DNA of 64,000 nucleotides from Pirellulales bacterium (GCA_016935315.1 JAFGRD010000141.1:12616-76615); one strand, 5' to 3'; positions 1 to 63,446 are shown, numbered from the stretch's first letter. A program made the numbers and translations. Notes: generated by a model from the letters alone, not told the origin.

Positions 1-2225
1 CCAAACTCCCCCCGAACGTAGAAATAGATGCGGCTGTCGTCGCGGCTCCACAGGGTGTGGTTGATGAAGAGGTCGCGGCCCTTGGTGTCCATCGTGCGCG
101 CCAGGTCGGCGAAGGAGACGAGCAGGCGCTTCTCGCCGGTGGCCATGTCCACGAGGAACACGCCGTCGTTGGCGGGCGCCGCCTCGGCCGAATTCCAGTC
201 GAAGGCGCCGGGATAGCCCGTAACCGGGCGAAGCCGCGCCAAACGTCCATAATTGACCCCGAGGAAATAACCGCCGCACTGGGCGACGCCGGAGTTGCCC
301 AAGGGCGTGTCGTCGAATCGGTATTCGCGGACACGCTTGCGGGCAACGACGTCGTAAACAACGGTGAAGATCTTGTGCGTCTCGGGGTCGCGGTCATTGA
401 AGATCAACTCCCGCGAGGCGGCCGCGGGATTCCAGTAGAACATCGTGCCCTGCTGAGAATTCCACGCACGCGACTCGTCGACCTTTTCGATGCGGTTGCC
501 GTTTTGCGTGTCGATGAGAACGACATCGGCCGGCTCGGCGGGATTCGGCATGCGGTCTTGAAATGAAGTACGCAGGGCGACGATGTAACGGCAATCCCCG
601 CTCCACGGGATGTTCTGCACGTGGCCGATGTAGCCGAAGAAGTGGTGGCTGGGGCCGTGCGTAAGCTGGCGGATTTGCACATGGAACTCGGCTGCCGCGG
701 CGGGAGGCCGACAGAACCGGGCTCCCGTTGGTCGCCCTCGCGCATTGACTGTGCAAGCGTCCATGGAGCCCTGCGCACGTTGCAGGCTGAGGGTTTTTGA
801 AAGGCGTTTGACCACGTCCGGGTGCCGTGCGGAGACGTCCTCGGTTTCGCCGAGGTCGTTTTGAAGGTTGTACAGTTGCGGTTTGAACTGATTCGCTCTG
901 GGGCCTTGATTTCCAGGGGGCTTCCTTCCGGGCCGTGCGAGTGGCACACCCTCGATCCATTTCCACGGCCCACTGCGGATGGCGTAAACGCCGTTGGCAC
1001 TCTGAAACAGCAGGTCTGTGCGCACCGGCTGGTCCGGCGTGCCGATGAAGGTGGACAAGACATTGACGCTGTCCGGCGCGGTGGTGGTGCGGTCGAGATG
1101 GGTTTCCCCGACTGCGGCCGCCACCGTCGCAAAGATGTCCACCACGCCGATCATCTGGTCGCTGGTGCTGCCGGCGGGGATTCTGTCGGGCCACCGCGCG
1201 ATGAACGGCACACGGAAACCGCCGTCCCACACGTCGTGTTTTCCGCCACGCAGCGCGCCGTTGATCTTCAGCCCGGCGTCCATGGCCTGCTTCTGCGTGT
1301 TGCTCTTGCTGCGCTCGGCGACCACGCCGCCGTTGTCGCTGGTGAAGATGACCAGCGTGTTCTCGACAGCCTCGATGTTCTCCAGCGCGCCCAGGATGCG
1401 GCCGACGCTGAGATCGAGGTCATGGATGAAATCACCGTAGGGGCCGGCTGGACTGGTGCCGCTGGTCCGTGCCGACGGCGTGACAAGTTCATGCACCGCC
1501 ACCGGAGCAAAGTAGAGAAAGAACGGCGCACTTTGCCCCTGCTGCTTCTCCAGCCACGCCACGGCGCGATCGGTCAGCTGTTCCATTGTCTTCGGGTCGT
1601 CGCGCTCGGGTGCATCGAGGCCGAGCTTGCCGGGGGACGGCGTGAGTTTATCCGACCGCAGGCCGAAGACCTTGTGATTCTCGACGAACACGCGCGTGAT
1701 GTCGTTGTGGTTTTGCGGCACGGCGAACTGATAGTCGAAACCGAGTTCCAACGGGCCTGGCTTCAGTTCCTTGGTATAATCCACGCGGCTTTCCGTCCCG
1801 TATCCGAGGTGCCACTTGCCCACCATCGCCGTGGCGTAGCCATGTTTCCCAAGCAGCGAGGCAATCGTCGGGCGGCTGGTCTCGATCAGCAGCGGGTCCA
1901 TTGTGTTCGCCACGCCGCCGTGATTCAGCCGGGTCCGCCAGCAGTAGCGGCCGGTCAACAGGGCATAACGCGTCGGCGTGCAGACCGACGACGGCGTGCT
2001 GGCGTCCGTGAACCGGCGGCCTTCGCGGGCAAGGCGGTCAAGGTTCGGCGTGCGGATGAGCCCCGGGGCCGCGCCGTAACAGCCGGCGCTGCCGTAGCCG
2101 TAGTCGTCGCTGAGGATGATCACAATGTTGGGCTTGGACGAGTCCGCAGTGGCAGGCGATGTCGCAGATCCGGCCCACACCGCGACGATCGCGAGACAAC
2201 TGGCGATTCGTAGAACGGTCTTCAT
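1..2225 (-). CDS. Sulfatase (N-terminal, formylglycine-dependent) continuing in frame, with no stop, through a repeat-element copy into a C-terminal beta-propeller region (TolB-like or oligogalacturonide-lyase-like). Partial: runs off the window start.
   Basis: Minus-strand ATG at 2225 overlaps the upstream stop (ATGA). Translation gives MKTVLRIASCLAIVAVWAGSATSPATADSSKPNIVIILSDDYGYGSAGCYG...SSVCTPTRYALLTGRY, i.e. a signal peptide and the CxPxR sulfatase signature. The frame is open for 741 codons to position 1. It is absent from the ORF track because no stop occurs inside the window. The C-terminal region reads ...LTHGPSHHFFGYIGHVQNIPWSGDCRYIVAL...LVDMATGEKRLLVSF.... Confidence 0.7.
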   Translation of the reverse strand, partial: MKTVLRIASCLAIVAVWAGSATSPATADSSKPNIVIILSDDYGYGSAGCYGAAPGLIRTPNLDRLAREGRRFTDASTPSSVCTPTRYALLTGRYCWRTRLNHGGVANTMDPLLIETSRPTIASLLGKHGYATAMVGKWHLGYGTESRVDYTKELKPGPLELGFDYQFAVPQNHNDITRVFVENHKVFGLRSDKLTPSPGKLGLDAPERDDPKTMEQLTDRAVAWLEKQQGQSAPFFLYFAPVAVHELVTPSARTSGTSPAGPYGDFIHDLDLSVGRILGALENIEAVENTLVIFTSDNGGVVAERSKSNTQKQAMDAGLKINGALRGGKHDVWDGGFRVPFIARWPDRIPAGSTSDQMIGVVDIFATVAAAVGETHLDRTTTAPDSVNVLSTFIGTPDQPVRTDLLFQSANGVYAIRSGPWKWIEGVPLARPGRKPPGNQGPRANQFKPQLYNLQNDLGETEDVSARHPDVVKRLSKTLSLQRAQGSMDACTVNARGRPTGARFCRPPAAAAEFHVQIRQLTHGPSHHFFGYIGHVQNIPWSGDCRYIVALRTSFQDRMPNPAEPADVVLIDTQNGNRIEKVDESRAWNSQQGTMFYWNPAAASRELIFNDRDPETHKIFTVVYDVVARKRVREYRFDDTPLGNSGVAQCGGYFLGVNYGRLARLRPVTGYPGAFDWNSAEAAPANDGVFLVDMATGEKRLLVSFADLARTMDTKGRDLFINHTLWSRDDSRIYFYVRGEF
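671..763 (-). mobile_element. MITE/REP-like interspersed element, copy A. Its 3' half has diverged. It lies in frame inside the sulfatase/propeller ORF.
   Basis: The plus strand carries the reverse complement of TTGACGCTTGCACAGTCAATGCGCGAGGGCGACCAACGGGAGCCCG...CCTCCCG shared with the copies at 5681, 29346, 31107, 35988, 46409 and 54424. A single base change makes ATGGACGC in place of ATTGACGC. Confidence 0.75.
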
Positions 2226-5680: not shown

Positions 5681-5730
5681 TATTGACGCTTGCACAATCA
5701 ATGCGCGAGGGCGATCACTTGAACGTCAAT
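5681..5730 (+). mobile_element. Truncated copy B of the MITE-like element (5' half only).
   Basis: tattgacgcttgcacaatcaatgcgcgagggcgatcac matches the 5' TIR and first hairpin of the element; the 3' half is missing. Confidence 0.6.
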
Positions 5731-28985: not shown

Positions 28986-29345
28986 CCGCGTTCGGCCTGT
29001 CGGTTGCCGGGTGTCCTCTTCAGGTTGATGGTGGCGGGGTTGAATGCCAGAACCGCGATGCAGTTTGTGCCAGCGCTTTCCCGCCGAGGCCGTGCGAGCA
29101 GCCCCCGATCCGTCTGAATGTGCTCGCGCGGCACTCACGCCGGAACCACCCCCTTCGGCAACGCGTCTGCCCCACTCGCGTAACAACCCACATATCCACT
29201 GTATATTACGGTTTTTTCCGTGCCAGAGCAACGCTAAATAACGCTGCGCGATGGTGGGAACTGGCCGGTTTCCGGGAGCCGCCTCCCGGAGGGTGGCAGC
29301 GGCGCTGGAGATTTCCCGAATCGTGCAGGCCTGTCCATTGGCGTT

Positions 29346-29449
29346 TGTACGGTCAATGCGCGAGGGCGACCAACGGGGGCCCGATTCTTCCGGGCCCCCG
29401 TTGGTCGGCCTTGATCATTCCCGATGCAGACATCAATAGAACATTTGTC
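29346..29449 (+). mobile_element. MITE-like element copy C, full length, closest to consensus.
   Basis: cattggcgtttgtacggtcaatgcgcgagggcgaccaacgggggcccgattcttccgggcccccgttggtcggccttgatcattcccgatgcagacatcaatag. The TCA of the 3' TIR, read on the other strand, is the TGA stop of the HEAT gene. Confidence 0.85.
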
Positions 29450-30137
29450 GCAGACGTTCGGCGATCGAAAGCGACCTGGCCGGCTCGGGCGTCTCGCCCC
29501 CAACATACTGTTGCCAGCGATTCACGTCGTTGCCGAGATCCTTGCCTGTGATCTGACGCAGGGATTTCATCGCCCGAACCTGCATCGCCGGATCCTCATC
29601 GCCGAGGACCTCCCCCAAGGCCGCCACGGCGGACGGGTCTTTCGACCGGCCCAGCGCTCGGGCGGCGGCCAACCGCACGTCGATATCGACGTCGCCACCC
29701 AGAGTTCTGCCCAACAGGGCGGCCGACTGCGGACCGTCACGTTTCCCCCACGCCTCGCAGGCGGTCATCCGTACCTCCGGGTCCAGGTCCTCCAGCGCGG
29801 CGCGCAGCACGTCCTCGGCCTGTTGGCAGCGATACGCGCCCAGAGTGCGGACAATCTCCGCCCGGATCAAAGGGTCGCCCTCGTTCTCGAATCCTTGGGC
29901 CAGCCGGGCTGCGACTTGTTGTTGCGAAGCAGAATCGCCGCTCGATCCCTTCTTCGCCAACTCCTTCAACTCGGCAATTCTTTCGCATGGAGCTTGCACC
30001 CCCTTTACCATGGGCTTCTTAGAGCTACCAAATAGACCCCAAGAGGGTGCCATGTCCATTTCGGCGCAACCCGCCAGCCAAAAGGCCAACAGCCAACCGA
30101 GCCAACCCCAACGCCGTGATCCGTTCGCGCTGTCCAT
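29433..30137 (-). CDS. HEAT-repeat (PBS-lyase-type) lipoprotein.
   Basis: Lipobox LAFWLAGCAE. Repeated ...EVRMTACEAWGK..., ...VDIDVRLAAARALGR..., ...DEDPAMQVRAMKSL... HEAT-like units. Confidence 0.65.
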   Translation of the reverse strand: MDSANGSRRWGWLGWLLAFWLAGCAEMDMAPSWGLFGSSKKPMVKGVQAPCERIAELKELAKKGSSGDSASQQQVAARLAQGFENEGDPLIRAEIVRTLGAYRCQQAEDVLRAALEDLDPEVRMTACEAWGKRDGPQSAALLGRTLGGDVDIDVRLAAARALGRSKDPSAVAALGEVLGDEDPAMQVRAMKSLRQITGKDLGNDVNRWQQYVGGETPEPARSLSIAERLRQMFY

Positions 30138-31106: not shown

Positions 31107-31213
31107 TTATTGACGCTTGCACACTCAATGCGCGAGGGCGACTAACTTGGAGCCCGACTTGTCCGGCCTCCCATTGGTCGGCCTGGGTTATTCACAATGC
31201 GAACATCAGTAAG
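31107..31213 (+). mobile_element. MITE-like element copy D.
   Basis: ttattgacgcttgcacactcaatgcgcgagggcgactaacttggagcccgacttgtccggcctcccattggtcggcctgggttattcacaatgcgaacatcagtaag. Intergenic, between 31048 and 31305. Confidence 0.8.
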
Positions 31214-35987: not shown

Positions 35988-36091
35988 CTGATTGGCGTTT
36001 GCACAGTCGATGCGCGAGGGTGACCAACAAGAGCCCGATTCTTCCGGCCTCCCGTTGGTCGGCCTTGATCACCAGCACTGCAGACATCAAT
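35988..36091 (+). mobile_element. MITE-like element copy E.
   Basis: gattggcgtttgcacagtcgatgcgcgagggtgaccaacaagagcccgattcttccggcctcccgttggtcggccttgatcaccagcactgcagacatcaatag. Intergenic, between 35851 and 36227. Confidence 0.8.
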
Positions 36092-36226
36092 AGCGCCTAT
36101 CCCGGAACGTTCTCCCCTAGCCCTGCTTGCGGGGAAAGGAACCGGGGGGAGGGGTTTTGGAACAGGCTCTTTCGCCACCGCCACCAAAAGCACACTCCCA
36201 CCTGCCCCAGTTTCAAGGAGCCCACC

Positions 36227-37552: not shown

Positions 37553-37646
37553 ACGACGTTCGACACAAGGGAAACGTTATGGGTAGCAAGGCGTCTGCGC
37601 CGCCTTTACGCCCATAAGAATGCCCAAACTGTTCTTCTGCGAGTAC

Positions 37647-38060
37647 CTAGGGAGTCATCGCGGCGTCGAGCATGCCGGTCAAACCGCTCTTCGACGTGGA
37701 GCCGACGATTCGATCGACAACCTGACCGTCCTTAAAGACAAGGAACGTGGGAATGGAAGCGATGCCGTACCGATCGGCGATCGACGGATTCTGGTCCACG
37801 TCCAACTGGCCCACGACGGCCCGGCCTTCGTAGTCGCCGGCCACATCGGCCACCACCGGCGCCATCGTCTGGCACGGCCCGCACCAGGTGGCGTAGAAGT
37901 CGACCAGCACCGGCTGGTCGCTGTCGAGCACCTCGGTCTGGAAGTTGGCGTCGGTCAACACGAAGTGGGCGGCGGCCGTCCCGCCGACCTGCCCCGCCGG
38001 GCCGCCACAACCGGCCAGCAGCAAGAGAACCACACAGGTTGCGATGAGCCTGCCTTGCAC
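37647..38060 (-). CDS. Thioredoxin, lipoprotein-anchored.
   Basis: GTG start gives MQGRLIATCVVLLLLAGCGG (lipobox); WCGPCQ active site; ...IPTFLVFKDG.... Confidence 0.8.
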   Translation of the reverse strand: MQGRLIATCVVLLLLAGCGGPAGQVGGTAAAHFVLTDANFQTEVLDSDQPVLVDFYATWCGPCQTMAPVVADVAGDYEGRAVVGQLDVDQNPSIADRYGIASIPTFLVFKDGQVVDRIVGSTSKSGLTGMLDAAMTP

Positions 38061-38203: not shown

Positions 38204-39655
38204 CTATCCGGCCCGCAACTGCCGCTCGACCTGCCGGATCGCTTCATCCACGTCCAACGTGCCCGCGGCCAATCGGAGCGGTTGCCCGCCGGCCATCCAG
38301 CCGTCGACCCGCTTCTGGGCCGAAATCACGGTGCTGTGGCTGCGGCGCCCGAAGAACCGACCGATCTCGCTCAGCGCGGCCCGCGTGTGCTTCCGGGCGA
38401 GCCACATCGCCAACATCCGCGGATGGCTGACCCGCTTCGCCTTGCCGCCCGTCTGCAAACTGGCCGGCTCCAGCCCGAACACGTCGCAAACCGCCTTCTC
38501 GATATCCGGCAGCCGCACCGGGCGGGCGCTCTGGCGGATCATTTCGGCCAGCGCCTCCTCGGCCAGCGAAACCGTGATCGGGCGGCCCAGGGCTTCGCTG
38601 GTCGCCTGGAGGCGGCACAACGCCCCGGCCAGCTCCCGGGCGTGATTCGTCAAACGCGAGGCGACGAAATTTCGCACGTCCTCCGACAGGCTCATCTCTC
38701 GCCGCTGGGCCATCTGGCCGACAATTTGCAGCCGGGTCTCGTAGTCGGGCGGTTCGATCCGGCAAACCATGCCGCTTTGCAGTCGCGTGACCAACTCGGG
38801 CCCGAGCTCGACCAGTTCGGCGGGCGGGCGATCGGACGCAAACACCAATTGCCGCCCGTCGCGAAGCAACGCTTCGGCCGTGTGCAACAGTTCGACCTGC
38901 GTGGCCCGTTTGCCCGCAAGGAACTGGAGATCGTCGAGAATCAACAAGCCCACGCCCCGGCAGCGGCGACGAAACATCGGCAGCCCGCTGCCGCGGAGGG
39001 CCTCGAGAAACTCGGTCGTGAACTGCTCGGCCGAGAGATAGATCGCCGAGGTTTGACGGTGCAAACGTCGCGACGCCGTGAAAACGCCCTCCAGCAAATG
39101 GGTCTTGCCGACGCTGGTGGGGCCATAGATCAACAGCGGGTTCATCTCCCCCGGCCGCCGCGCCACCATGGCGGCCGAAGCAGCCGCCAAGGCGTTGCTC
39201 GGCCCCGACACGAACGAGTTGAGCGTGGCAAACTTGCGCCGCGACGTGCCGTTGACGGCCGCCGGCGAGGAGGATTGCGCCGGGCGTTGCTGCGGCCCGA
39301 TGCGCTGGGCGCCCGCACGCGGCTTGGCCGTTCCGTTCGACCCGTTCTTGGCGGCCGTGGGACCTGGAGCACTAGCCAAGGTGGCATCGATGCGAAACTC
39401 CAACTCGACGCTGGCTCCCAGCGTGTCGAGACACGCCTGCTGGATCTGCTGGCGGAAGTTCGCGCGGATCCAGTCGAGAAAGAAGCGGTTTGGTACGCCG
39501 ATGCGCAGCACATCACCGCCGAAATCGAGCCGCGTGCTGGCGCCGAACCAGAGTTCGAATCGCTCCTTGCCGACCCTTTCGGCCAATGCGTCACGCATTG
39601 CCGAAACGACTTCCATATCGTCCGTGGTCACGTCCGATCCATCCCCGGCGCGCAC
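38204..39655 (-). CDS. dnaA: Chromosomal replication initiator protein DnaA.
   Basis: ...LLIYGPTSVGKTHLLEG... Walker A; ...LLILDDLQFLAGK... Walker B; C-terminal DNA-binding ...RMLAMWLARKHTRAALSEIGRFFGRRSHSTVISAQKRV.... Start may be GTG 39655 or ATG 39616. Confidence 0.93.
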   Translation of the reverse strand: MRAGDGSDVTTDDMEVVSAMRDALAERVGKERFELWFGASTRLDFGGDVLRIGVPNRFFLDWIRANFRQQIQQACLDTLGASVELEFRIDATLASAPGPTAAKNGSNGTAKPRAGAQRIGPQQRPAQSSSPAAVNGTSRRKFATLNSFVSGPSNALAAASAAMVARRPGEMNPLLIYGPTSVGKTHLLEGVFTASRRLHRQTSAIYLSAEQFTTEFLEALRGSGLPMFRRRCRGVGLLILDDLQFLAGKRATQVELLHTAEALLRDGRQLVFASDRPPAELVELGPELVTRLQSGMVCRIEPPDYETRLQIVGQMAQRREMSLSEDVRNFVASRLTNHARELAGALCRLQATSEALGRPITVSLAEEALAEMIRQSARPVRLPDIEKAVCDVFGLEPASLQTGGKAKRVSHPRMLAMWLARKHTRAALSEIGRFFGRRSHSTVISAQKRVDGWMAGGQPLRLAAGTLDVDEAIRQVERQLRAG

Positions 39656-43009: not shown

Positions 43010-43065
43010 ACAACTACGCAGACGCCGGCAACTACGCAGACGCCGGCAACTACGCAGACGCCGCC
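43010..43065 (+). repeat. Three tandem 18-bp direct repeats in the divergent promoter region.
   Basis: caactacgcagacgccgg repeated three times. Lies between the sigma factor (minus) and the 43282 gene (plus). Confidence 0.75.
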
Positions 43066-43281
43066 TCTCCTTCCATGGTAAACTGAAACGTCACCGCCTG
43101 ATAGCCGCTTCGCCTCGCGCACAACGATCTTGGAGCCCGTCGGAAACAAGACGGGCGCGCGGGAAAGATAGCGGCGCGATGCGACCGTGCCGGGAAACCC
43201 CCGTCGCGGCGGCCGGACGATGCATCGCCGGCCGGCGTACCGCATCAGGCGGGCAGAAAACAGACAGCAAAGGTTAAAACG

Positions 43282-46200
43282 ATGAAAGCCGCCTTCTGGT
43301 CGTGGGTCCTCTGGTGCGCCGTCGCTCCCCAGGTGCAAACATCCCAGACGCCCGAAACCCTGCTCTATATCCGCACCACGCCCTCCGGGGCCGAAATCTC
43401 CCTGGACGGCAAGCCGCTGGGCACGTCCGACGGGCTGTTTCCAGTCAAGCCGGGAACCTACAAGATCGTCGTCGACTTGCAGGACCACCAGCCCAAGCAG
43501 CAAAGCATCACTCTCCGCGACGGGCAAATCACGCGGATCGAGTTGGAATTGCAGGCCACAGCCGGACGGCGCCGCGCGACGGCGCGCCCGCTGATTCCAC
43601 GGCCTGCCTTCGGCCGCTTCGACGTTCGCCTCGAGCTGCGGGTCGCCCCGGCAGCGCCCGGATGCGAGTTCGCCACACTTGCCAAGGAACACGTCGCCCG
43701 GTACCGGAAGGACCTCCAAACAAAGGGGCCGCTTGCCGGCCGCGTGCCCGAGGCGCTTTACGCCTGGTTCGAGCTGCGGGTCGAGCCGTCGCCGGAACTG
43801 ATCACCGCCGAGTATCAGGGGGCGACCTACGTCCTGCTGTCGAACCGCCCCGACGAGGTCATGCTGGCCTCGCGCGACGGTGCCGACGCCTGGGGACTGA
43901 CGTCGGTCGACGTGACGGCCGACGGTCGCGGAGCGCCGGCCATCGGCGCAGAGATGGACGAGGCCGGCGCGAGGCTTCTGGCGGCCTTGAGCGGGTCGCA
44001 CCTCGGCCAGCGCGTGGCGATACTGCTGTGCGACCAGGTACTGGCAGCGCCGGTCGTCCGCGGCAAGATCTCCGAGAGGATTGCGATCACCGGACAGTTC
44101 GAGCGCCGCGAGGTCGAAGAGCTGGTCGCGGCGTTGAGGGCCAGCCTGGCCCGGCCCGGCGCCGGTGCGCCGACCGCCACAGTCGAGAGCCGCGTGTTGG
44201 CCGACGCCTGTGCCCAAATGTTGGGCGACTTTGTCGCTGCGCGGAAGCAGGCCGGCGGCAAGATCCCCGACGATTGGGATTCTCCGCAGTTCGTTCCCCG
44301 AACGATCGAGCAGTGTAAGCGGCAGTATCCCGGCCCGTTTGCCGTGACGCCGGAAGAGGAACGCCGGTTCACCGCGGGCGAGTTTGATGACGCGGCTGCT
44401 TCGCGACGCGCCGGCGAGGCCATCCAATCGTTGACCAAGGACAAGGTCGAGTTGCCCGCCGGAGCCCAGTACCTCATCGACGAATTCCAGACGGGAAGGC
44501 TCCAAGGGGCCCGGCTGGAACTGGCCGCGCGGTTACTTGCGGCACAGCTCCAGGACACCGCTCAAATGCAGCACCGCTCTGTCCAGACGGCCCTCAAGCT
44601 CCTTGAGACCTCCTTGGCGTGCTATCAGCTCGACCTGGGAGTGTATCCGACGACTGACGAGGGCTTGGCCGCGCTGACCAGCAAGCCGGCCACCGCCGGG
44701 ACCCAAGAGAAATGGCAAGGTCCCTATGCCAGCGAGTTGCCCCGAGATCCTTGGGGCCACGACTATCGATACCGCCGGCCCGGCAAGCACCAGCCGGATT
44801 CGTTCGACCTCTGGTCGGTCGGCCCGGACGGCCTCGACGGCACGGCGGACGACGTGGGCAATTGGCCCGAGCACGACGATGCCGCGGACGACAACCGGCC
44901 GGCCGACCCGAACCGCCGCCCGCGATACTTCGTGCGTCTGGTGTTGGGCGACGACACCATGACCTTGGAAGGTGCCACGACCACGTGGGAGGAGTTGCCC
45001 GAGTTGCTGGAGCGAGTCCCCAACCGCGGACAGACCGTGTTGGAGATTGCGGTCGCGGCGGAGAAGCCAAGCGACAAGCAGCGTGCCGACGCGATGCGTC
45101 GGGCCAGCGGCCTGGCCCGGCGTTTCGGGTTTGAATACCCCAGTATCGTCGGTGTGCATCCCCTGGGGTCAAGGGGGGCGCCGCCCCAGACCGACTCCCC
45201 CAAAGCGGCCCCAGCGCCGGAGACGTCGGACGGAGCGGCCAAGGAGGTCTTGCGGCGCTACAGCCAGGCCGTTTGGGCCGAGGCATTGCCCCGGCTCGAA
45301 TCCGCGTCGGGGCCCGAGGCCACGGAGATGATCCAACAGGTCGCCATGGAGGCGGCGCAGCGCCACATTCTACCGCAGAAAGACCTCGTTGCCCGATACG
45401 CCCTGAGTCGAATGCCCGACGCCGAGCCGGTCGATGCTTCGCAATGGACGGAGAAAGTGGTGTTCCGCCCCGAGGACGATGCGGCCGATTCCCCGCGGCA
45501 ACCGACGGCCTTCTGGCATCCGATCGTGGTGGCAGCCGGACTGCAGCAACAGGTGATGGTCAAGGACATGTCGGCGAAGCGTTTCGGCACGTTTGCCATG
45601 TCGCGCTTCTACGCCCCTGCGCCGACCACCGTCTTGGATCGCAACCTGGACCATCCGGTGATCGCGACGGCCTTCGGCGACCAGTTGCTGGTGGCTCATC
45701 TGCGCCGGGCCGACGACGGTCTTTACCACGGCGAGCAGGTCCGCTGGCTGACAAAGCGGCCCGCGGCCACGCAGGATTACTTCCTGCTGCCGGTCGGCGC
45801 CACGCCGGCGCAGCGGCTCGTTCACACCTTCAGCAAGATCGTCTGGAACGACTTGCTGCCACGGTTGGCCGGGCAGGAGCCGGAAGTCCTCGCAAAGGAA
45901 TTGGGGAGGTTTTCCCGTCGCTTTTTCGTCAAACACCACGAGCTGCTGAAGGCCGAAGGCGAGCGGCTCCTGGCCGAATTGCCGAAGTCGGAACCCATCG
46001 ACTTCTCGCAATGGACATCCCGCTTCCCGGAAACCACCGACGAAATGTCTGAGGCGATGCGGCACGCGATGGCCTCGGAGCGGGCTGATATCGGTATCGG
46101 CGATGTGCACCTGTGCTTCAACCCGGTCCAGATGGCGGCCATGATGCAGCAAACCACGCTGGCCAGGCTGGCCGGCCCGGGAATGCTCGGGCTGCGTTCG

Positions 46201-46410
46201 ATGGTGCGGGCGGCGGCCGTGTATCCCTTGGACGCGATCCTCGACGGCGATCCCCAACGGCCCGCCATTGCCACACGGATGGGCGACGAGCTGTCCATCG
46301 TCCGCTTGCGTCGCCAGCCCAACGGTGCCTACGAATTCGACCGGATTGAGTGGCTGGTCCGTGCGAAGGCCGATTCGAAAGCGACTAAGGCGGCGCCCCG
46401 TCGCAAGTGA
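43282..46410 (+). CDS. Large secreted chimeric protein: N-terminal PEGA domain, SecD-P1-head-like domain, internal GspG (T2SS pseudopilin)-like domain, ExbD/TolR-like domain, and a C-terminal region of unknown function.
   Basis: PEGA: LLYIRTTPSGAEISLDGKPLGTSDGLFPVKPGTYKIVV. SecD-like: ...QRVAILLCDQVLAAPVVRGKISERIAITGQFERREVEELVAALRA. GspG-like: ...YQLDLGVYPTTDEGLAALTSKP...WQGPYASELPRDPWGHDYRYRRPGKHQPDSFDLWSVGPDGLDGTADDVGNW. ExbD-like: ...YFVRLVLGDDTMTLEGATTTWEELPELLERVPNRGQTVLEIA.... Confidence 0.7.
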   Translation: MKAAFWSWVLWCAVAPQVQTSQTPETLLYIRTTPSGAEISLDGKPLGTSDGLFPVKPGTYKIVVDLQDHQPKQQSITLRDGQITRIELELQATAGRRRATARPLIPRPAFGRFDVRLELRVAPAAPGCEFATLAKEHVARYRKDLQTKGPLAGRVPEALYAWFELRVEPSPELITAEYQGATYVLLSNRPDEVMLASRDGADAWGLTSVDVTADGRGAPAIGAEMDEAGARLLAALSGSHLGQRVAILLCDQVLAAPVVRGKISERIAITGQFERREVEELVAALRASLARPGAGAPTATVESRVLADACAQMLGDFVAARKQAGGKIPDDWDSPQFVPRTIEQCKRQYPGPFAVTPEEERRFTAGEFDDAAASRRAGEAIQSLTKDKVELPAGAQYLIDEFQTGRLQGARLELAARLLAAQLQDTAQMQHRSVQTALKLLETSLACYQLDLGVYPTTDEGLAALTSKPATAGTQEKWQGPYASELPRDPWGHDYRYRRPGKHQPDSFDLWSVGPDGLDGTADDVGNWPEHDDAADDNRPADPNRRPRYFVRLVLGDDTMTLEGATTTWEELPELLERVPNRGQTVLEIAVAAEKPSDKQRADAMRRASGLARRFGFEYPSIVGVHPLGSRGAPPQTDSPKAAPAPETSDGAAKEVLRRYSQAVWAEALPRLESASGPEATEMIQQVAMEAAQRHILPQKDLVARYALSRMPDAEPVDASQWTEKVVFRPEDDAADSPRQPTAFWHPIVVAAGLQQQVMVKDMSAKRFGTFAMSRFYAPAPTTVLDRNLDHPVIATAFGDQLLVAHLRRADDGLYHGEQVRWLTKRPAATQDYFLLPVGATPAQRLVHTFSKIVWNDLLPRLAGQEPEVLAKELGRFSRRFFVKHHELLKAEGERLLAELPKSEPIDFSQWTSRFPETTDEMSEAMRHAMASERADIGIGDVHLCFNPVQMAAMMQQTTLARLAGPGMLGLRSMVRAAAVYPLDAILDGDPQRPAIATRMGDELSIVRLRRQPNGAYEFDRIEWLVRAKADSKATKAAPRRK

Positions 46411-46509
46411 TGTCCGCATTGCGAATGATCCAGGCCGGCCCACGGGAGGCCGGGAAAGTCGGGCTCCCGTGGGTCGCCGTCGCGCATTGACGGTGCCCAC
46501 GTCAATAAG
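46409..46509 (-). mobile_element. MITE-like element copy F (reverse orientation).
   Basis: The plus strand carries gtgatgtccgcattgcgaatgatccaggccggcccacgggaggccgggaaagtcgggctcccgtgggtcgccgtcgcgcattgacggtgcccacgtcaataag. The TGA stop of the 43282..46410 gene lies inside the element terminus. The element sits between convergent genes. Confidence 0.8.
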
Positions 46510-46516
46510 ATGCCGG

Positions 46517-48160
46517 CTACGGCTGTTGCTTGATGGCAATCAAGTGACTTCGCGTGGCGATGTAGAGCACGTCGTCGACCACCACGCCGGCACTGTAGAT
46601 CGAATCGCCCACGCTGTTCTCGGCCAGCAGCTTCATTTGGGGCGAGAGCTCGAAGACCGCCACGTCGCCGTCCTCGTCGCCGATGTAGACCTTCCCGTCA
46701 ACGACCAGCGGCGAGCCCCACATGGTCGCCAGCATGTCATAGGTCCAGTGGACCTTGCCGGTCCTGGCGTCCAGACAGTGGAACAACCCGGCCAGGTCGG
46801 CGATCACCAGCAAGTTGTCCCGGATTGCCGCCATGCCCAACGTGCGGTGCATCGTCTCCTCGAAATCAAACCGGCCGTCGCCGTTGGCGTCGTGGCCCGT
46901 GTAGTGCCAGATGGCCGCCGATTTGGGGTTCGGCCGGACTACGTCGCCGGCCTCCTTGTCGGCCGCCAGAATCCGCCGCGGCGGGATCGGCTTGCCATCT
47001 TCGTCAAAGACGAGCTCCGGGCTGACGTCGCCCCGCTTGGTGGGGTCGATGCACCAAAGGTGCCCTTGCCCTTCGCCGTGCTCGGGATCCTGACCGGTGG
47101 CGATGTACACCTTGCCCTCGCAGACCACCGGCGTGGCGATCAGGTTGCTCCGGTCGCCCGCTCCGGCTTCCCTCCACTTCGACTCCTTGGGATTGCAGTC
47201 GAACTTCCAGAGCAGTTCCGGCTTGCCGGTGTCGGTTCGCTCGGCGCGGAAGCTGTAGAGCCAGCCGTCGCCGCCGGGGAAAATCGCCTGGGGTACGTCG
47301 CCGAGGACGGCAAACGCCGGCGAGCCCCACTGCCCGTGCAAGAGGTTGCGGCCCGGCGAGTTGTCGGCCCAAACCAGCTCGCCGGTCTTCTTGTCCAGCG
47401 CGATAAAGCTGGGGGCGTCCGGGGCCGGGATCCTCTTGTGCGACTCGTCTACGCCGTTGGACGTATTGACCAGCAGCAGGTCGCCCGCCGCCGTGACCGA
47501 GCAACTGGCCATGTTGTGTTGCACGCTGCCGAGCTGCCTCATCATGTCGAACAGCCAGACGACATCGGCCTCGTTGTGGGCGTTGTTCGGTTCGGAGGTG
47601 TACGGCCCGTCGTTCTCGCCGTCGTAGAACCCGTCGGCGTCCAGACAGGCCACCTCGCCGCGGTTGGTCACCACCCAGAGCCGCTCGTCCTCGACCACCG
47701 GGGAACAGCAGATACCCTGGTCGGGCCAATCGACCGCACGCCCGGCCTCGAGCTTCTCGCGGGAAAGCTGCCAACCGAACCGCCCGTCGCGCTGGCGGAA
47801 ACAGAGCAGACAGCCCAGATCAACGTCGCTGGGATATCGCGGCAGGTATCCGGCACCGTTGTTGGTAGCGCAATAAACGCGGCCGCCGGCGATCACGGGG
47901 CTGCCGTAGCTCTGCGAGCCGAGCTGGGCGACCCACAGAATGTTCTTCGCCCCTTCGGGCAGCCATTTCCCGGTCCGGTAGTCGAAATCGCCGACATTCC
48001 ACTCCACCGGAATGTCCTTTCCGTCGGGCGTGTTGTTGCGTGCGGGTGATCCGCCCCATTGGGGCCAGTCGGCGGCTCGCCCCAAACAGGTACAACCGAG
48101 CAAAACCGTCAACAACAGGGCGCGAACCATCCACTCGGATCGGGGAGCAATACGTTTCAT
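46517..48160 (-). CDS. PQQ-repeat beta-propeller protein (BamB/PQQ-enzyme-repeat-like), secreted.
   Basis: Signal MKRIAPRSEWMVRALLLTVLLGCTCLGRAADWPQWGG. Repeated ...G.VY.....G.L.A.DA.TG...W blades. Confidence 0.7.
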   Translation of the reverse strand: MKRIAPRSEWMVRALLLTVLLGCTCLGRAADWPQWGGSPARNNTPDGKDIPVEWNVGDFDYRTGKWLPEGAKNILWVAQLGSQSYGSPVIAGGRVYCATNNGAGYLPRYPSDVDLGCLLCFRQRDGRFGWQLSREKLEAGRAVDWPDQGICCSPVVEDERLWVVTNRGEVACLDADGFYDGENDGPYTSEPNNAHNEADVVWLFDMMRQLGSVQHNMASCSVTAAGDLLLVNTSNGVDESHKRIPAPDAPSFIALDKKTGELVWADNSPGRNLLHGQWGSPAFAVLGDVPQAIFPGGDGWLYSFRAERTDTGKPELLWKFDCNPKESKWREAGAGDRSNLIATPVVCEGKVYIATGQDPEHGEGQGHLWCIDPTKRGDVSPELVFDEDGKPIPPRRILAADKEAGDVVRPNPKSAAIWHYTGHDANGDGRFDFEETMHRTLGMAAIRDNLLVIADLAGLFHCLDARTGKVHWTYDMLATMWGSPLVVDGKVYIGDEDGDVAVFELSPQMKLLAENSVGDSIYSAGVVVDDVLYIATRSHLIAIKQQP

Positions 48161-48215
48161 TATGTCTCGTTCCTGGGTCGTCTTGTTCTGGAGGTAGAAA
48201 GCCAACGGCGGGCTG

Positions 48216-48581
48216 CTACTGGTGCACGATTACTTCGTCCTGCGGGTCGAACTTCGGCAGGACGACAATCAGCACGGTCATGCGACCGACGGCACGGTGC
48301 CGAACGCCGGGGGGAATGTAGATGCACGTGCCGGGGCGAATCGGCACCAACTCGTCGTCGAGTTGCATCTTGGCCTCCGGCGTGCACTGAAGCACATAGT
48401 ACGTCTCGCTAAGCCGCCGGTGGTAGTGCAATTGGGCGTCGGTGCTGATTTCGGTCCGATGGATCGTTCCCGGAAACTCCGCCACGTCGGCCAGCGCCCG
48501 CCGGGCGGTGCCGCAAGGGCAGGAAACGCCGGGGAGCCGGTCAAAGTCGACGATCCGATAGCGTCGGGGGCCGCAGTCCAT
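48216..48581 (-). CDS. Cupin-domain protein.
   Basis: ...GTIHRTEISTDAQLHYHRRLSETYYVLQCTPEAKMQLDDELVPIRPGTCIYIPPGVRHRA..., a two-His cupin motif. Confidence 0.6.
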   Translation of the reverse strand: MDCGPRRYRIVDFDRLPGVSCPCGTARRALADVAEFPGTIHRTEISTDAQLHYHRRLSETYYVLQCTPEAKMQLDDELVPIRPGTCIYIPPGVRHRAVGRMTVLIVVLPKFDPQDEVIVHQ

Positions 48582-49202
48582 CCGGGAGGTCCTTGAGGCG
48601 AGTATGCACGTCCGGCCATCTTAACAGATTGTGCCGCCGGTGGCCACAACGGGCCACTTGGACAAGGTAGGGATCGCCGGTAGGTTCCGTGGGTGCAGCC
48701 ATGGGCTGTTAACCTTGGCAGGGTCTGCCGATTACTGCAACCTACACGGCCTCAAGCAGGCTGCGGGACCGCCGGATAATCGGCAAACCTTCGCTGCCTT
48801 ACGCGCGCGCAAATGTTTGCGCATCAAGAGCGGTAAACCTTTTGCTGAAAATGGTTTCCGTACACTCAAGCGCCCTTCCCGGGCCGACCGATATCGTATG
48901 CTGACCCTTAGCGAATACCGCGTGCCTCGGTGGCACGCTCCCTAGGGCGCGTCAGGTAACCGGATCGGCATTAATCGAGTCAAGGAATGGCTCGACGGTC
49001 CTGGCGCAGTACACCGTGCGAACTGCGGGCACCGACCCACCCTGCCCGCCCGCAGCCAAAGACCCCGCCTTGGCCGGTTCTTGCCCATGGGAGAACCCGC
49101 GGGCGCCGCGCCCTGACAACGCGTTGATCGGGCGTTCGGGAATCTGGCTGCGGCAGCGAGAGTCGCGTTGACCGCAGTTGATTGTAAAGGAGTTGTTGCT
49201 CA

Positions 49203-52358: not shown

Positions 52359-54428
52359 ATGATGCCACGCAGTAGCCTGCTTCCTCTCCTGCTTTCGGCC
52401 ATCCTCTCAGCCGCGGCGTTCTCTCGCCCGAGTGCCGTTGCCGACGACGCGCGCGAATCCGGGGCGTTTACGCTCCATACCCGCAGCCGGCCGGAGATGA
52501 ACAAGGGAACGTTCCATTTCCCGCTGGTCTACCAGACCGTGCAGTGGGACCCGCGGAAGACGGCCGTGGTGATCTGCGACATGTGGGACCAGCACTGGTG
52601 CAAGTCGGCGACCGCGCGGGTGGCCGAGATGGCGCCGCGGATGAACGCTCTGATCTCGGTGGCTCGCGAGCAGGGCGCGCTGATCGTCCATTGCCCCAGC
52701 GGCACGCTCGATTTCTACAAGGACACGCCCGGCCGAAAGCTGGCCCGGCAGGCCCCTGCGGTCGAGCCGAGGGTGCCGCTGCAGGGCTGGTGCTCCCTGG
52801 ATGTGCAGCGCGAGGGCCAGCGTCTGCCGATCGACGATTCCGACGGCGGCTGCCCCTGCCAACCGCCGTGCCCCGGCGGACACCCGTGGACCCGTCAGAT
52901 CGCAACGATCGAGATCAAGCCGGGCGACGCGATCACCGACAACGCCGAGGCTTATTACCTGATGCAGCAGCGCGGCATCGAGAACGTGATCGTGATGGGC
53001 GTGCATACCAACATGTGCGTGCTGGGCCGGCCGTTCTCCATCCGCCAGATGGTCTACCAGGGCAAGAACGTCGTGCTGGTCCGCGACCTGACCGACAGTA
53101 TGTACAACCCCCGCCGCGAACCGTTCGTCAGCCACTTCCGCGGCACGGAGATGGTCGTCGAGCACATCGAGAAGTACTGGTGCCCCACGATCACCAGCAG
53201 CGATTTCCTGGGCGGGCCGGCCTTCCGGTTCCGCGAGGACACGCGGGCGCACGTCGTCTTGCTGGCCAACGAGGACGAGTATGGGGCCAGGCAGACGCTG
53301 CCGGATTTCGCCCAACTGCTGCGAGACTGCTTCGGCTATCGCTGCACGGTGATCCAGGGATACGCCCCGCACGATCTGTCGGGCATCGAGGCCCTCGAAT
53401 CGGCCGACGTGGCGGTGCTGTTCGTGCGTCGCCGGGCCTTGCCGCAGCAGCAAATGGCCGTGCTGCGGAAGTACCTGGAGGCCGGCAAGCCGCTGGTGGC
53501 GCTGCGGACCGCGTGCCACGCCTTCGACGTCCGCGGCGACGCCCCGGCCGGCTCGCAGCAATGGCCGGCGTTCGACCGCGAGGTGCTCGGCTGCAACTAC
53601 CGTGGGCACGGCCCGAACCAGTTGGGCACCGACGTGGCGTTGGTGCCGGAGATGGCCGATCACCCGATTCTCTCCGGCGTCAAGCCGGCGCAGTGGCACA
53701 GCCCCGGCTCGATCTACCTGGTCAGGCCGGTCGACGAGGAGGCCGAGGTGCTGGCGGTCGGCACGGCGTTGAATCTGACCGAGCCGATCGCTTGGGCCCG
53801 CCGCTACCGGGGCGGCCGCGTATTCTACACGTCGCTGGGACACCGCAGCGACTTCATGCAGCCGCAGTTTCGGGTGCTGTTGATCAACGCCGTGCACTGG
53901 GCGATGGGCCGGCCGGTGCCGCCGCTACCGGGCGACGCCTCGCCCGACTTCTCCGCCGGGTGGCACACCCTGGCCGTGCCCGGCACCTGGGACGCCCGCT
54001 CCGGCGGTTACCTGATCGGCTACGACGGCTACGCCTGGTACCGTTGCCTGGTCACCGTGCCCGAGGCCTGGCGCGACAACGACCTCACACTTTCGGTGCC
54101 CGAGGTGGATAATTGCCACGAGGTGTTTTTCAACGGCTTGAAGGTCGGTTCCGCCGGCTCGATGCCGCCGGACTACGTCAACGGGCTCGGCAGCGAGAAG
54201 CCTTGCACGGTGCCGGCGTCGCGCGTGCGTTCTGGGCAAAAGAACCTCGTGGCACTGCGCGTCTACGACCACGACGGCCGTGGCGGCTTCAAAGGCAAGG
54301 CCCCGAGTCTCGGCTTCGGCCAGCAGGTCATTTCCCTGGAAGGCAAGTGGCAATTTCGCACGGGCGACGACGCGAGGTGGGCGCAGCCCGACGAAGAGAC
54401 ACCGCCCGCGGAGGCATTTTCCTATTGA
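52359..54428 (+). CDS. Secreted three-domain protein: isochorismatase-like cysteine hydrolase, ThuA-like (class-I glutamine-amidotransferase fold), and a GH2-type sugar-binding beta-sandwich.
   Basis: Signal MMPRSSLLPLLLSAILSAAAFS. AVVICDMWDQHW...VIVMGVHTNMCVLG (isochorismatase). ...GGRVFYTSLGHRSDF... (ThuA). ...LTLSVPEVDNCHEVFFNGLKVGS... (GH2 N-terminal-like). Confidence 0.7.
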   Translation: MMPRSSLLPLLLSAILSAAAFSRPSAVADDARESGAFTLHTRSRPEMNKGTFHFPLVYQTVQWDPRKTAVVICDMWDQHWCKSATARVAEMAPRMNALISVAREQGALIVHCPSGTLDFYKDTPGRKLARQAPAVEPRVPLQGWCSLDVQREGQRLPIDDSDGGCPCQPPCPGGHPWTRQIATIEIKPGDAITDNAEAYYLMQQRGIENVIVMGVHTNMCVLGRPFSIRQMVYQGKNVVLVRDLTDSMYNPRREPFVSHFRGTEMVVEHIEKYWCPTITSSDFLGGPAFRFREDTRAHVVLLANEDEYGARQTLPDFAQLLRDCFGYRCTVIQGYAPHDLSGIEALESADVAVLFVRRRALPQQQMAVLRKYLEAGKPLVALRTACHAFDVRGDAPAGSQQWPAFDREVLGCNYRGHGPNQLGTDVALVPEMADHPILSGVKPAQWHSPGSIYLVRPVDEEAEVLAVGTALNLTEPIAWARRYRGGRVFYTSLGHRSDFMQPQFRVLLINAVHWAMGRPVPPLPGDASPDFSAGWHTLAVPGTWDARSGGYLIGYDGYAWYRCLVTVPEAWRDNDLTLSVPEVDNCHEVFFNGLKVGSAGSMPPDYVNGLGSEKPCTVPASRVRSGQKNLVALRVYDHDGRGGFKGKAPSLGFGQQVISLEGKWQFRTGDDARWAQPDEETPPAEAFSY

Positions 54429-54526
54429 CGCTTGCACACTCAATGCGCGAGGGCGGCCAATGCGAGCCCGACTTGTCCGGCCTCCCGTTGGTCGGCCTGG
54501 GTCATTCACAATGCAAGCATCAATAG
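54424..54526 (+). mobile_element. MITE-like element copy G.
   Basis: tattgacgcttgcacactcaatgcgcgagggcggccaatgcgagcccgacttgtccggcctcccgttggtcggcctgggtcattcacaatgcaagcatcaatag. The TGA within the 5' TIR is the stop of the upstream gene. The element sits between convergent genes. Confidence 0.85.
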
Positions 54527-63441: not shown

Positions 63442-63446
63442 ACAGT

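What the first reader, a model, noticed from the sequence alone, without database searches (positions are those of the whole stretch)
29346..29449. Family of ~105-bp MITE/REP-like elements with terminal inverted repeats and a long internal hairpin; at least 7 copies in 64 kb
The same element recurs at about 671-763 (-), 5681-5730 (+, truncated), 29346-29449 (+), 31107-31213 (+), 35988-36091 (+), 46409-46509 (-) and 54424-54526 (+). The termini read TATTGACG ... CATCAATA (an imperfect 8-bp TIR). Inside, a TTGAC-N-GTCAA mini-hairpin is followed by a larger stem-loop whose ~18-bp arms (e.g. GGCGACCAACGGGAG and CTCCCGTTGGTCGGCC) are complementary with 1-2 mismatches in several copies. There is no coding capacity. 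That is about one copy per 9 kb. Placement is non-random. Six of the seven copies sit within 0 to 140 bp 3' of a gene end. Two copies lie in convergent intergenic gaps (46.4 kb and 54.4 kb). This pattern fits a non-autonomous mobile element, or a structured RNA that also acts as a terminator or stability element. I do not recognise this consensus from described planctomycete repeats.
Basis: seen in the sequence. Interest (0 to 1): 0.8.

Follow-up and report, generated by a model that had tools for sequence, protein, structure and literature searches.

The report
New foldback MITE family in Pirellulales
The repeats are real copies of a small non-coding jumping-DNA element (a MITE) in an uncultured planctomycete; it lands on TA inside YTAR sites, which often means a gene's stop codon, and this is an ordinary kind of bacterial repeat, not a new type of system.

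Summary
The window has five full copies of about 103 bp and two truncated copies (nhmmer E 1e-30 to 1e-8; a 23-nt core pattern gives 7 hits against 0 in shuffles).

The element is not an 8-bp TIR plus separate hairpins. It is one end-to-end imperfect foldback of 36 pairs, -45 to -71 kcal/mol.

Across 12 full copies (5 here, 7 on unrelated metagenome contigs) the ends read Y-TA-TTGACG...CATCAA-TA-R. All 11 reconstructed empty sites are YTAR. This matches IS630/Tc1-mariner-type insertion with TA duplication.

In three of the five full window copies, the neighbouring gene's stop codon is the TGA of the terminal TAT-TGA. That means insertion into a TAA/TAG stop. A 68%-identical orthologue ends GCA TTT CCG TAG exactly where the window reconstructs to GCA TTT TCC TAG.

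TA is strongly depleted here, with only 69 YTAR sites in 64 kb, so the gene-end bias follows from target choice plus selection. Syntenic spacers in relatives lack the element.

I found no transposase gene, no Rfam match and no terminator T-run. The mobilising partner remains unknown.

Verdict: a new member of a known kind (RUP, Correia and ERIC-like MITEs), of modest interest.

The parts
29336..29438 (+). Full copy (103 nt, TA to TA). The left TA has decayed to CA. It lies between two minus-strand genes, downstream of the HEAT-repeat gene and 105 nt upstream of the DacZ/DAC gene.
   Evidence: nhmmer 106 bits. Folds at -70.9 kcal/mol, z -8.9. Flanks; gene families.
29433..29435 (-). TGA stop codon of the HEAT-repeat gene (29433..30137, minus strand). 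It lies inside the element's right terminus, which reads ...TTC TAT TGA on the minus strand.
   Evidence: Sequence. ORF. Pfam HEAT_2 at 5e-24. ORF-end test.
31108..31211 (+). Full copy (104 nt, with a 1-nt insertion). It sits between two plus-strand genes, 59 nt after a 169-aa ORF and 93 nt before the SPFH/Band7 gene.
   Evidence: nhmmer 101-109 bits. Alignments.
35990..36092 (+). Full copy (103 nt; the left TA has decayed to GA). It lies 138 nt after the DUF1570 gene and upstream of a TAT-signal GFO/IDH/MocA oxidoreductase gene.
   Evidence: nhmmer 106-109 bits. Pfam.
46405..46507 (-). Full copy (103 nt; the right terminus has decayed to CACTT). It fills the convergent gap between the PEGA/SecDF/GspG-like gene (+) and a PQQ beta-propeller gene (-), whose TAG stop lies 9 nt from the left end.
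   Evidence: nhmmer 99-103 bits. An independent Logan assembly contig is identical.
46408..46410 (+). TGA stop of the 1042-aa PEGA/GspG-like gene. It lies inside the element terminus.
   Evidence: The protein as annotated at NCBI (P0128, 1042 aa, 100% identity) ends here. ORF-end test.
54423..54525 (+). Full copy (103 nt, both TAs intact). It lies in the convergent gap between the isochorismatase/ThuA gene (+) and mnmA (-).
   Evidence: nhmmer 106-111 bits. Sequence. Folds at -56.4 kcal/mol.
54426..54428 (+). TGA stop of the isochorismatase/ThuA gene. It is supplied by the element (…GCA TTT TCC TAT TGA), and the displaced original TAG sits at 54524-54526.
   Evidence: Sequence. NCBI protein P0001 ends ...AFSY. 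The orthologue L029 ends GCA TTT CCG TAG.
701..765 (-). Truncated copy (left ~65 nt). It lies in frame between a sulfatase ORF and the next gene, so no stop codon separates the two.
   Evidence: nhmmer 52-57 bits. Sequence and translation. Third-position G+C stays high in the same reading frame across positions 1-2300.
5681..5717 (+). Truncated copy (left ~37 nt), 19 nt upstream of the ATG of the 1048-aa HZS_alpha/PD40 gene (minus strand).
   Evidence: nhmmer 30 bits. Sequence.

Best explanation
[quoted passage not shown] Each is a ~101-bp non-coding DNA transposon remnant plus a duplicated TA.

What is shown:
- The two halves of the element are inverted copies of each other, so the whole thing is a foldback.
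- Copies are bounded by TA on both sides.
- The base outside the TA is always a pyrimidine on the left and a purine on the right.

What is inferred:
- A DDE transposase of the IS630/Tc1-mariner type, encoded elsewhere in the genome, binds the terminal inverted repeats (TTGACGCTTGCAC...).
- It excises the element and pastes it into the TA of a YTAR site, duplicating the TA.

Why the copies sit at gene ends:
- In this 65% G+C genome TA is strongly depleted, and YTAR is rare outside stop-codon contexts and intergenic spacers.
- Tolerated insertions therefore pile up at gene 3' ends.
- When a TAA or TAG stop is hit, the terminus TA-TTGA gives the ORF one extra Tyr codon and an immediate TGA. The insertion is then nearly neutral.

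Age and possible RNA effect:
- Copies in this genome are old, at 76-89% pairwise identity, and some are truncated or have decayed termini.
- Any copy that is transcribed would form a long hairpin in either orientation. That may secondarily affect mRNA processing or stability, but this is speculation by analogy with NEMIS and ERIC.
For: Repeat family and copy census.

Foldback structure:
- Each full copy folds end to end, with z-scores of -3 to -9 on the canonical strand.
- The consensus structure has 36 pairs.

Orientation is well defined, at ~110 bits forward against ~30 bits reverse. Copies occur in both orientations and in both senses relative to flanking genes.

Termini and flanks:
- 12 of 12 full copies have a pyrimidine before the left TA, and 11 of 11 have a purine after the right TA.
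- The Y and R are complementary in only 5 of 11 copies, so they belong to the target and not to the TIR.
- No longer direct repeat flanks the copies.

Stop-codon insertions:
- Three annotated or Pfam-supported genes end at the TGA of the terminal TAT-TGA.
- For the 54.4-kb copy, removing the element and one TA gives GCA TTT TCC TAG.
- The 68%-identical orthologue on L029 reads GCA TTT CCG TAG at the aligned position and has no element there.

Absence at the syntenic spacer in relatives:
- The ThuA -> <- mnmA spacer is 51 nt in L025.
- It is occupied by HicAB in L026 and L027.
- There are no family members in 32 kb of these relatives.

Other organisms:
- Family members sit on 9 unrelated metagenome contigs from several samples with 56-65% G+C.
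- 3 of the 5 JGI hits lie at contig ends, as expected for a multi-copy repeat.

Target scarcity:
- The window has 889 TA against 1971 expected.
- It has 69 YTAR sites, 27 of them intergenic, against about 34 TAR stop codons.
- On those numbers, 3 of 5 insertions at stops is the expected outcome (P = 0.6), not an anomaly.

Known mechanism: IS630-family elements insert into TA with a 2-bp duplication, and IS630 prefers CTAG (PMC2170065 and its reference to Tenzen & Ohtsubo 1991).
Against: - I found no autonomous partner. None of about 46 window genes is a transposase, and no fetched contig carries an IS with these TIRs.
- Only one orthologous empty site is available. It comes from a 68%-identical relative, in a poorly conserved C-terminal tail where the protein alignment is ambiguous, although the DNA alignment is clear.
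- No within-population presence/absence polymorphism could be examined.
- Whether the TA is a duplication or the last two bases of the element is inferred, not shown.
- Arms of ~50 nt are longer than typical IS630 TIRs.
- An excess of compensatory changes (5 pairs against 1.1 in shuffles, 0/500) hints at a constraint on the hairpin that the transposase model alone does not require.
- Genome-wide copy number is unknown.
Confidence: 0.8

Rival explanations
1. REPIN or REP-type element: a hairpin-forming doublet of palindromic repeats, mobilised as single-stranded DNA by a RAYT (HUH/Y1) transposase and without target duplication.
For: - The element is a ~100-nt hairpin, like a REPIN.
- Paired columns are better conserved than unpaired ones (92% against 81%).
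- Compensatory changes exceed the shuffles.
- REP termini are known to supply stop codons to flanking ORFs (PMC3733652).
- Tagged REPs have been reported in Planctomycetes.
Against: - There is no GTAG or CGTC tag at a stem-loop end.
- The arms are not themselves GC-rich 20-40-nt palindromes.
- The symmetric TA flanks in a YTAR context and the reconstructed stop codon fit staggered-cut DDE insertion, not HUH insertion next to a fixed motif.
- No Y1_Tnp/RAYT gene is in the window.
Confidence: 0.07
2. Host-encoded structured RNA or regulatory motif (terminator, mRNA stabiliser or protein-binding site) kept at gene 3' ends by selection, and not mobile.
For: - All copies lie within 140 nt of a gene end.
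- The hairpin is very stable.
- There is a modest excess of covariation.
Against: - Orientation relative to transcription is mixed: sense at 31.1, 36.0 and 0.7 kb, antisense at 29.3 and 5.7 kb.
- There is no T-run and no terminator consensus hit at the copies.
- Rfam gives nothing. The best hit is 16.7 bits to a miRNA model whose gathering score is 105.
- The element is absent from syntenic spacers of relatives.
- Copies overlap and replace stop codons.
- Truncated and decayed copies exist.
- The gene-end bias is explained by YTAR scarcity.
Confidence: 0.06
3. PATE: a non-autonomous derivative of an IS200/IS605-family element, moved as single-stranded DNA by a Y1 transposase and inserted 3' of a short target such as TTGAT.
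For: - The termini contain TTGAC and TTGAT. From memory, these resemble the ISDra2 target pentanucleotide.
- The element is strongly hairpin-forming.
Against: - IS200/IS605 ends carry short subterminal hairpins, not end-to-end inverted repeats.
- Insertion is asymmetric, with the target on one side only, whereas here both flanks are symmetric (Y-TA ... TA-R).
- No TnpA or TnpB gene is in the window.
Confidence: 0.03

Closest known systems
RUP (repeat unit of pneumococcus), the 107-bp MITE of Streptococcus pneumoniae thought to be mobilised by IS630-Spn1
   Same: - About the same size (103 against 107 bp).
- Non-coding, with terminal inverted repeats.
- Insertion at TA dinucleotides.
- Many dispersed, mostly intergenic copies (PMC2229807).
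   Different: - No sequence similarity.
- The host phylum differs (Planctomycetota, 65% G+C).
- Here the whole element is a foldback.
- Three of its frames are open, whereas RUP has stops in all six.
- RUP's IS partner is identified by TIR similarity; here no partner is known.
Correia / NEMIS elements of Neisseria
   Same: - Small (~107-155 bp) with TIRs and a TA duplication.
- Frequently fused to the ends of ORFs.
- Transcripts fold into long hairpins (PMC2229807).
   Different: - The sequences are unrelated.
- Correia elements carry IHF sites and promoter elements and are RNase III substrates by experiment. None of this was tested or seen here.
ERIC / IRU elements of enterobacteria
   Same: - A ~127-bp imperfect palindrome.
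- Located in transcribed intergenic regions in either orientation.
- No coding capacity (from memory, and listed as a MITE in PMC3733652).
   Different: - The sequence and host clade are unrelated.
- From memory, ERIC insertions are also bracketed by TA, but this was not checked here.
- In this family YTAR flanks are found in 11 of 11 copies.
IS630 / Tc1-mariner insertion sequences (e.g. IS630, ISY100)
   Same: TA target with a 2-bp duplication, and a preference of IS630 for CTAG, which is a YTAR site (PMC2170065).
   Different: Those are autonomous elements of about 1.1 kb that encode a DDE transposase. This element has no gene, and its TIRs were not compared with any IS630-family member.
GTAG/CGTC-tagged REPs and REPINs
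   Same: - Palindromic and extragenic.
- Their ends often supply stop codons to flanking ORFs (PMC3733652).
- REPINs are ~100-nt hairpins.
   Different: - This element has no GTAG or CGTC tag.
- It has TA flanks.
- Its arms are not short GC-rich palindromes.
- No RAYT gene was seen.

Membership tests
Bacterial MITE | Small (<~300 bp) and without a gene of its own | tested here: met
   103-104 nt from TA to TA. No ORF of its own. The open frames are only read through from neighbouring genes.
Bacterial MITE | Terminal inverted repeats | tested here: met
   Left and right halves are complementary over ~50 nt (I9: 74%). The consensus has 36 pairs.
Bacterial MITE | Multiple dispersed copies in unrelated contexts and in both orientations | tested here: met
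   7 copies in 64 kb, plus copies on 9 unrelated metagenome contigs and a decayed relic on L029.
Bacterial MITE | Target-site duplication flanking each copy | tested here: inconclusive
   TA is intact at both ends in 8 of the 11 full copies with both flanks readable. One reconstructed site matches the stop codon of a 68%-identical orthologue. No exact empty site from a close relative or from reads was available, so duplication as opposed to 'TA is part of the element' is inferred.
Bacterial MITE | Presence/absence polymorphism between related genomes | tested here: met
   The ThuA/mnmA spacer carries the element only in the window. L025 has 51 nt there, L026 and L027 have HicAB, and L029 has 177 nt without it. 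The relatives are only 68-76% identical at protein level.
Bacterial MITE | A related autonomous IS with the same TIRs | not testable with these tools
   No transposase is in the window.
IS630/Tc1-mariner-derived MITE | Insertion into TA with 2-bp duplication, often in a palindromic NTAN/CTAG context | tested here: met
   All 11 reconstructed sites are YTAR (CTAG x2, TTAG x4, TTAA x3, CTAA x2). The family property is taken from PMC2170065.
IS630/Tc1-mariner-derived MITE | TIR sequence similarity to an IS630-family IS | not tested
   No IS reference library was available. blastn of the consensus against plasmids and phages gave nothing meaningful.
REP / REPIN (RAYT-mobilised) | 20-40-nt GC-rich palindrome tagged by GTAG or CGTC at one end | tested here: not met
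   The termini read TATTGACG / CATCAATA. There is no terminal tag. Definition taken from PMC3733652.
REP / REPIN (RAYT-mobilised) | Associated RAYT (Y1 transposase) gene flanked by the repeats | tested here: inconclusive
   None among the window genes. The genome-wide state is unknown.
Intrinsic terminator / described structured RNA | GC-rich hairpin followed by a U-run, or a match to an Rfam family | tested here: not met
   No terminator-like site at any copy in 28.9-36.5 kb. Rfam gives 0 matches at gathering threshold. The only sub-threshold hit is a 16.7-bit miRNA model.

The most novel reading that the evidence does not exclude
The family may be more than a passive parasite. Its termini (TA-TTGA on both strands) may have been shaped so that insertion into TAA/TAG stop codons is self-repairing. 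The foldback may also be kept under selection, given the excess of compensatory changes and the better-conserved paired columns, because transcribed copies act as 3'-end RNA stabilisers or processing sites in Pirellulales. That would make it a domesticated MITE, present at hundreds of copies per genome if the window's density holds.
Probability: 0.15. Interest if true: 0.45.

Novelty: new member of a known kind. Interest (0 to 1): 0.3.

Why it matters
**Annotation.** The element shifts stop codons by one codon. In one place it fuses two ORFs (sulfatase and its neighbour). It also breaks metagenome assemblies, with contigs ending in the element.

**Biology.** It documents a TA/YTAR-targeting MITE in an uncultured Pirellulales lineage, a phylum where small mobile repeats are barely described. 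It also gives a clean example of how target specificity plus TA depletion in a GC-rich genome produces an apparent 'gene-end' bias without any regulatory function.

**Practical use.** It could serve as a strain-typing marker or a handle for finding an active IS630-like transposase in planctomycetes.

It does not open a new class of system.

Tried and rejected
1. **Genome-contig scan** with a 23-nt degenerate core. These are chance matches: nhmmer aligns only the pattern itself, below 15 bits.
2. **Exact-protein look-ups** to fetch more of the source genome.
   - Three failed.
   - Two returned Logan contigs that lie inside the window.
3. **Autonomous partner.**
   - L017 has a left end followed by unrelated sequence, which turned out to be a truncated copy upstream of an ispB-like gene, not an IS.
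   - Pfam on about 46 window ORFs found no transposase or RAYT.
4. **Peptide trick.** A profile of the element's four open frames, searched against 5.8 billion proteins, gave only 4 significant hits. The family is therefore rare in public data or rarely falls inside called genes.
5. **Second stop-codon test** with homologues of the PEGA/GspG-like protein. There was no close orthologue (best 60% identity over 31% of the query), so the search gave no homologue close enough to use.
6. **Other sequence searches.** The viral-contig scan and the plasmid and phage blastn searches found nothing.
7. **Promoter or terminator role.** No consensus sites fall at the copies.
8. **oriC-linked repeat idea**, raised because dnaA is at 38.2-39.7 kb. 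I dropped it because there is no GC-skew switch and copies occur on unrelated contigs.
9. **Strand-specific RNA role.** The canonical strand folds better in some copies and worse in another, and the sense relative to genes is mixed.

Full report
**Observation**

The window (64 kb, 64.9% G+C) contains a real repeat family.
- The repeat finder grouped the claimed copies.
- A profile HMM built from the copies finds five full-length members at 99-111 bits. The TA-to-TA spans are 29336-29438(+), 31108-31211(+), 35990-36092(+), 46405-46507(-) and 54423-54525(+).
- It also finds two truncated members that keep only the left end: 701-765(-) with about 65 nt, and 5681-5717(+) with about 37 nt.
- A 23-nt degenerate core pattern hits exactly these seven sites and none in 100 shuffles.
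- Forward-strand scores are about 110 bits against about 30 for the reverse strand, so the element has a defined orientation.

**Anatomy**

In fact the two halves are inverted copies over about 50 nt (I9).
- Every full copy folds end to end into one long imperfect hairpin, at -45.6 to -70.9 kcal/mol on the canonical strand. In four of the five copies no dinucleotide shuffle folded as well; for the 31.1-kb copy one of 200 did.
- Seven further full copies came from other metagenomes. RNAalifold on the 12-sequence alignment A3 gives one 36-pair helix.
- 92.6% of cells are paired.
- Five pairs show changes on both sides, against 1.1 in shuffles (0/500).
- Paired columns are more conserved than unpaired ones (92% against 81%).
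- This is a modest signal that pairing is maintained. It does not distinguish an RNA or ssDNA hairpin constraint from the need for both ends to fit one transposase.
- Pairwise identity of the window copies is 76-89%, with a mean of 80%. Together with the two truncated copies and three decayed termini, this points to an old family in this genome.

**Source organism and distribution**

- Two window proteins are 100% identical to NCBI proteins of a 'MAG: Pirellulales bacterium' on a 111,288-bp contig.
- Two Logan contigs from SRR13394437 carry window proteins. One (L028) was checked and is 100% identical to window 43034-49577. The other (L030) was not aligned; its called genes match those around 2-7 kb.
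- The nearest homologues of the isochorismatase/ThuA protein are only 68-76% identical, so no close relative is available.
- A long-pattern scan of JGI metagenomes returned five contigs. All are true members (31-116 bits), and their flanks are unrelated to the window. Three of the five have the element at a contig end, the usual sign of a multi-copy repeat.
- Searching 5.8 billion proteins with a profile of the element's open reading frames returned four significant proteins. Their contigs each carry a copy; one has an intact copy next to a degenerate one.
- These contigs are 56-65% G+C and sulfatase-rich. I read them as related planctomycetes, but this is an inference.
- Rfam has no match. 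Plasmid, phage and viral collections have none either.

**Termini and target site**

In all 12 full copies the ends read TA-TTGAYG ... CRTCAA-TA, apart from point decay in three window copies and one metagenome copy (L024).
- The base outside the left TA is a pyrimidine in 12 of 12. It is also a pyrimidine in the four partial copies that retain a left end.
- The base outside the right TA is a purine in 11 of 11.
- Y and R are complementary in only 5 of 11 copies. They therefore behave as flanking target sequence and not as part of the inverted repeat.
- No longer direct repeat flanks any copy.
- Removing the element and one TA reconstructs YTAR in 11 of 11 cases: CTAG twice, TTAG four times, TTAA three times and CTAA twice.
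- This is the signature of IS630/Tc1-mariner elements. They insert into TA with a 2-bp duplication, and IS630 itself prefers CTAG (PMC2170065 and its citation of Tenzen & Ohtsubo 1991).

**Stop codons**

In three of the five full window copies, the flanking gene ends at the TGA inside the terminal TAT-TGA:
- The isochorismatase/ThuA gene has its stop at 54426-54428. The NCBI protein ends ...AFSY.
- The 1042-aa PEGA/GspG-like gene has its stop at 46408-46410. This is the NCBI-annotated end.
- The HEAT-repeat gene has its stop at 29433-29435 on the minus strand (Pfam 5e-24).

In each case the opposite end of the element supplies TA+R, so the pre-insertion sequences read TCC TAG, CGC TAA and TTC TAG.

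For the first gene I could test this prediction.
- The only homologue sharing the C-terminal domain is P0002 (68% identity). Its Logan contig is L029.
- L029 reads ...CCCGCCCGCCCGC ATTT CCG TAG. The window reads ...CCGCCCGCGGAGGC ATTT TCC TA[element TA]G.
- The orthologue's TAG therefore sits exactly where the reconstructed one does, and L029 has no element there.
- The protein-level alignment of this low-complexity tail is ambiguous, but the DNA alignment is clear.
- L029 does carry a badly decayed relic of the family (21 bits) 100 nt upstream of the same gene. The window has nothing at that position.

**Why the copies sit at gene ends**

- TA is strongly depleted here, at 889 observed against 1971 expected.
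- YTAR occurs only 69 times in 64 kb. Only 27 of these are intergenic and outside the elements, against roughly 34 TAA/TAG stop codons (the gene calls are approximate and based on third-position G+C content (GC3)).
- If only non-disruptive YTAR sites are tolerated, three or more of five insertions at stop codons has P = 0.6.
- With all intergenic TA dinucleotides as the pool, P = 0.03.
- The placement bias is therefore what a YTAR-targeting element under purifying selection would produce. No regulatory role is needed.
- The termini make a stop-codon hit nearly harmless, adding one Tyr codon and then TGA.

**Test of the 'conserved motif' alternative**

The convergent pair ThuA -> <- mnmA, followed by a release-factor gene, is syntenic in relatives.
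- In L025 the spacer is 51 nt.
- In L026 and L027 it holds a HicAB module.
- In L029 it is 177 nt. The short ORF fragment at the end of that contig does not resemble MnmA, so synteny there is unconfirmed.
- Only the window has the element, and 32 kb of these relatives contain no member.

Orientation relative to transcription is mixed. No promoter or terminator consensus falls on a copy, and no T-run follows the hairpin.

**What is missing**

- No transposase or RAYT gene is among about 46 window ORFs. These are mostly housekeeping genes, including dnaA, eno, guaA, dxs, mnmA and a release factor (PCRF/RF-1 domains).
- No fetched contig holds an IS with these ends. L017 turned out to be a truncated copy.
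- The single genome-contig scan was consumed by chance hits, so the genome-wide copy number and the partner are unknown.
- Extrapolating 7 copies per 64 kb would give hundreds per genome, but that is only an extrapolation.

**Comparison and verdict**

The element works like RUP (107 bp, TA target, IS630-Spn1), Correia/NEMIS (TA duplication, ORF fusions, transcript hairpins) and ERIC (a ~127-bp imperfect palindrome) (PMC2229807, PMC3733652).
- Repeat termini supplying stop codons is already known for GTAG REPs.
- The element shares no sequence with any of these families and lies in a phylum where MITEs are essentially undescribed.
- It fails the REP definition, having no GTAG/CGTC tag and having TA flanks.
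- It also fails the terminator/Rfam tests.

I file it as a new member of a known kind, a foldback MITE that is most likely IS630-mobilised. My confidence is about 0.8 for 'MITE' and lower, about 0.55, for the IS630-type partner. Interest is modest.

Noticed in passing
window 3-2303 (-), junction at 679-770: A sulfatase ORF has no stop codon. It reads in frame through the truncated element copy (...KRLSKTLSLQRAQGS-MDACTVNARGRPTGARFCRPP...) into the next gene, whose likely GTG start is at 681-679 (VQIRQLTHGPSHHFFGY...). Third-position G+C content (GC3) stays high in one frame across 1-2300. This could be a real fusion, a gene disabled by a deletion, or an assembly problem at a repeat.
   Followed up: partly
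window 37583-37653 and 63445-63515 (+): A second small repeat of about 71 nt, in 2 copies at 73% identity. It starts with GTAG followed by a GC-rich hairpin (GTAGCCAGGCGTCTGCGACGCCTGGCTGC), and each copy lies just after a gene end. It looks like a GTAG-tagged REP or a terminator region.
   Followed up: partly
window 49188-50012 (+): An ORF built of cysteine-rich tandem repeats (…[26 protein letters not shown]…-type units; repeat families D3, D5 and D13). It has no Pfam match. The Logan contig L028 ends inside it.
   Followed up: no
whole window: TA dinucleotides are strongly depleted (889 against 1971 expected), and YTAR occurs only 69 times. In my rough gene calls based on third-position G+C content, TAG is the commonest stop (about 25 of 49, against 18 TGA and 6 TAA). 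That is unusual for a 65% G+C genome, but it rests on crude calls.
   Followed up: partly
window 38204-39655 (-): dnaA lies in the middle of the window, next to a thioredoxin gene. There is no GC-skew switch across the window, so no origin is evident here.
   Followed up: partly
L026 11589-12045; L027 3159-3347: In relatives, the ThuA/mnmA convergent spacer that holds the MITE in the window is instead occupied by a HicA/HicB toxin-antitoxin pair. In L025 an IS110-family transposase sits just upstream of the ThuA gene. This spacer region appears to be a recurrent landing site for mobile DNA.
   Followed up: no
L022 1134-1187 and 1239-1344; L029 39-122: L022 has a degenerate half-copy about 50 nt from an intact copy, and a gene caller fused both into a 75-aa 'protein' (P0121). 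L029, the 68%-identical relative, has a heavily decayed relic upstream of the ThuA gene. Its fold is no better than shuffled sequence.
   Followed up: partly
window 5698-5979 (-): A short ORF with a sub-threshold match to PRiA4_ORF3 (25.6 bits against a cut-off of 26.6), covering only profile positions 40-108 of 173. It ends at a TGA inside the truncated element copy. It looks like a gene remnant clipped by the same deletion that truncated the element.
   Followed up: no
window 701-765, 5681-5717; L017 300-359: The three internally truncated copies all retain the left end and lack the right end. Only the L022 half-copy retains the right end. This could be chance or a bias in hairpin-associated deletion.
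   Followed up: no
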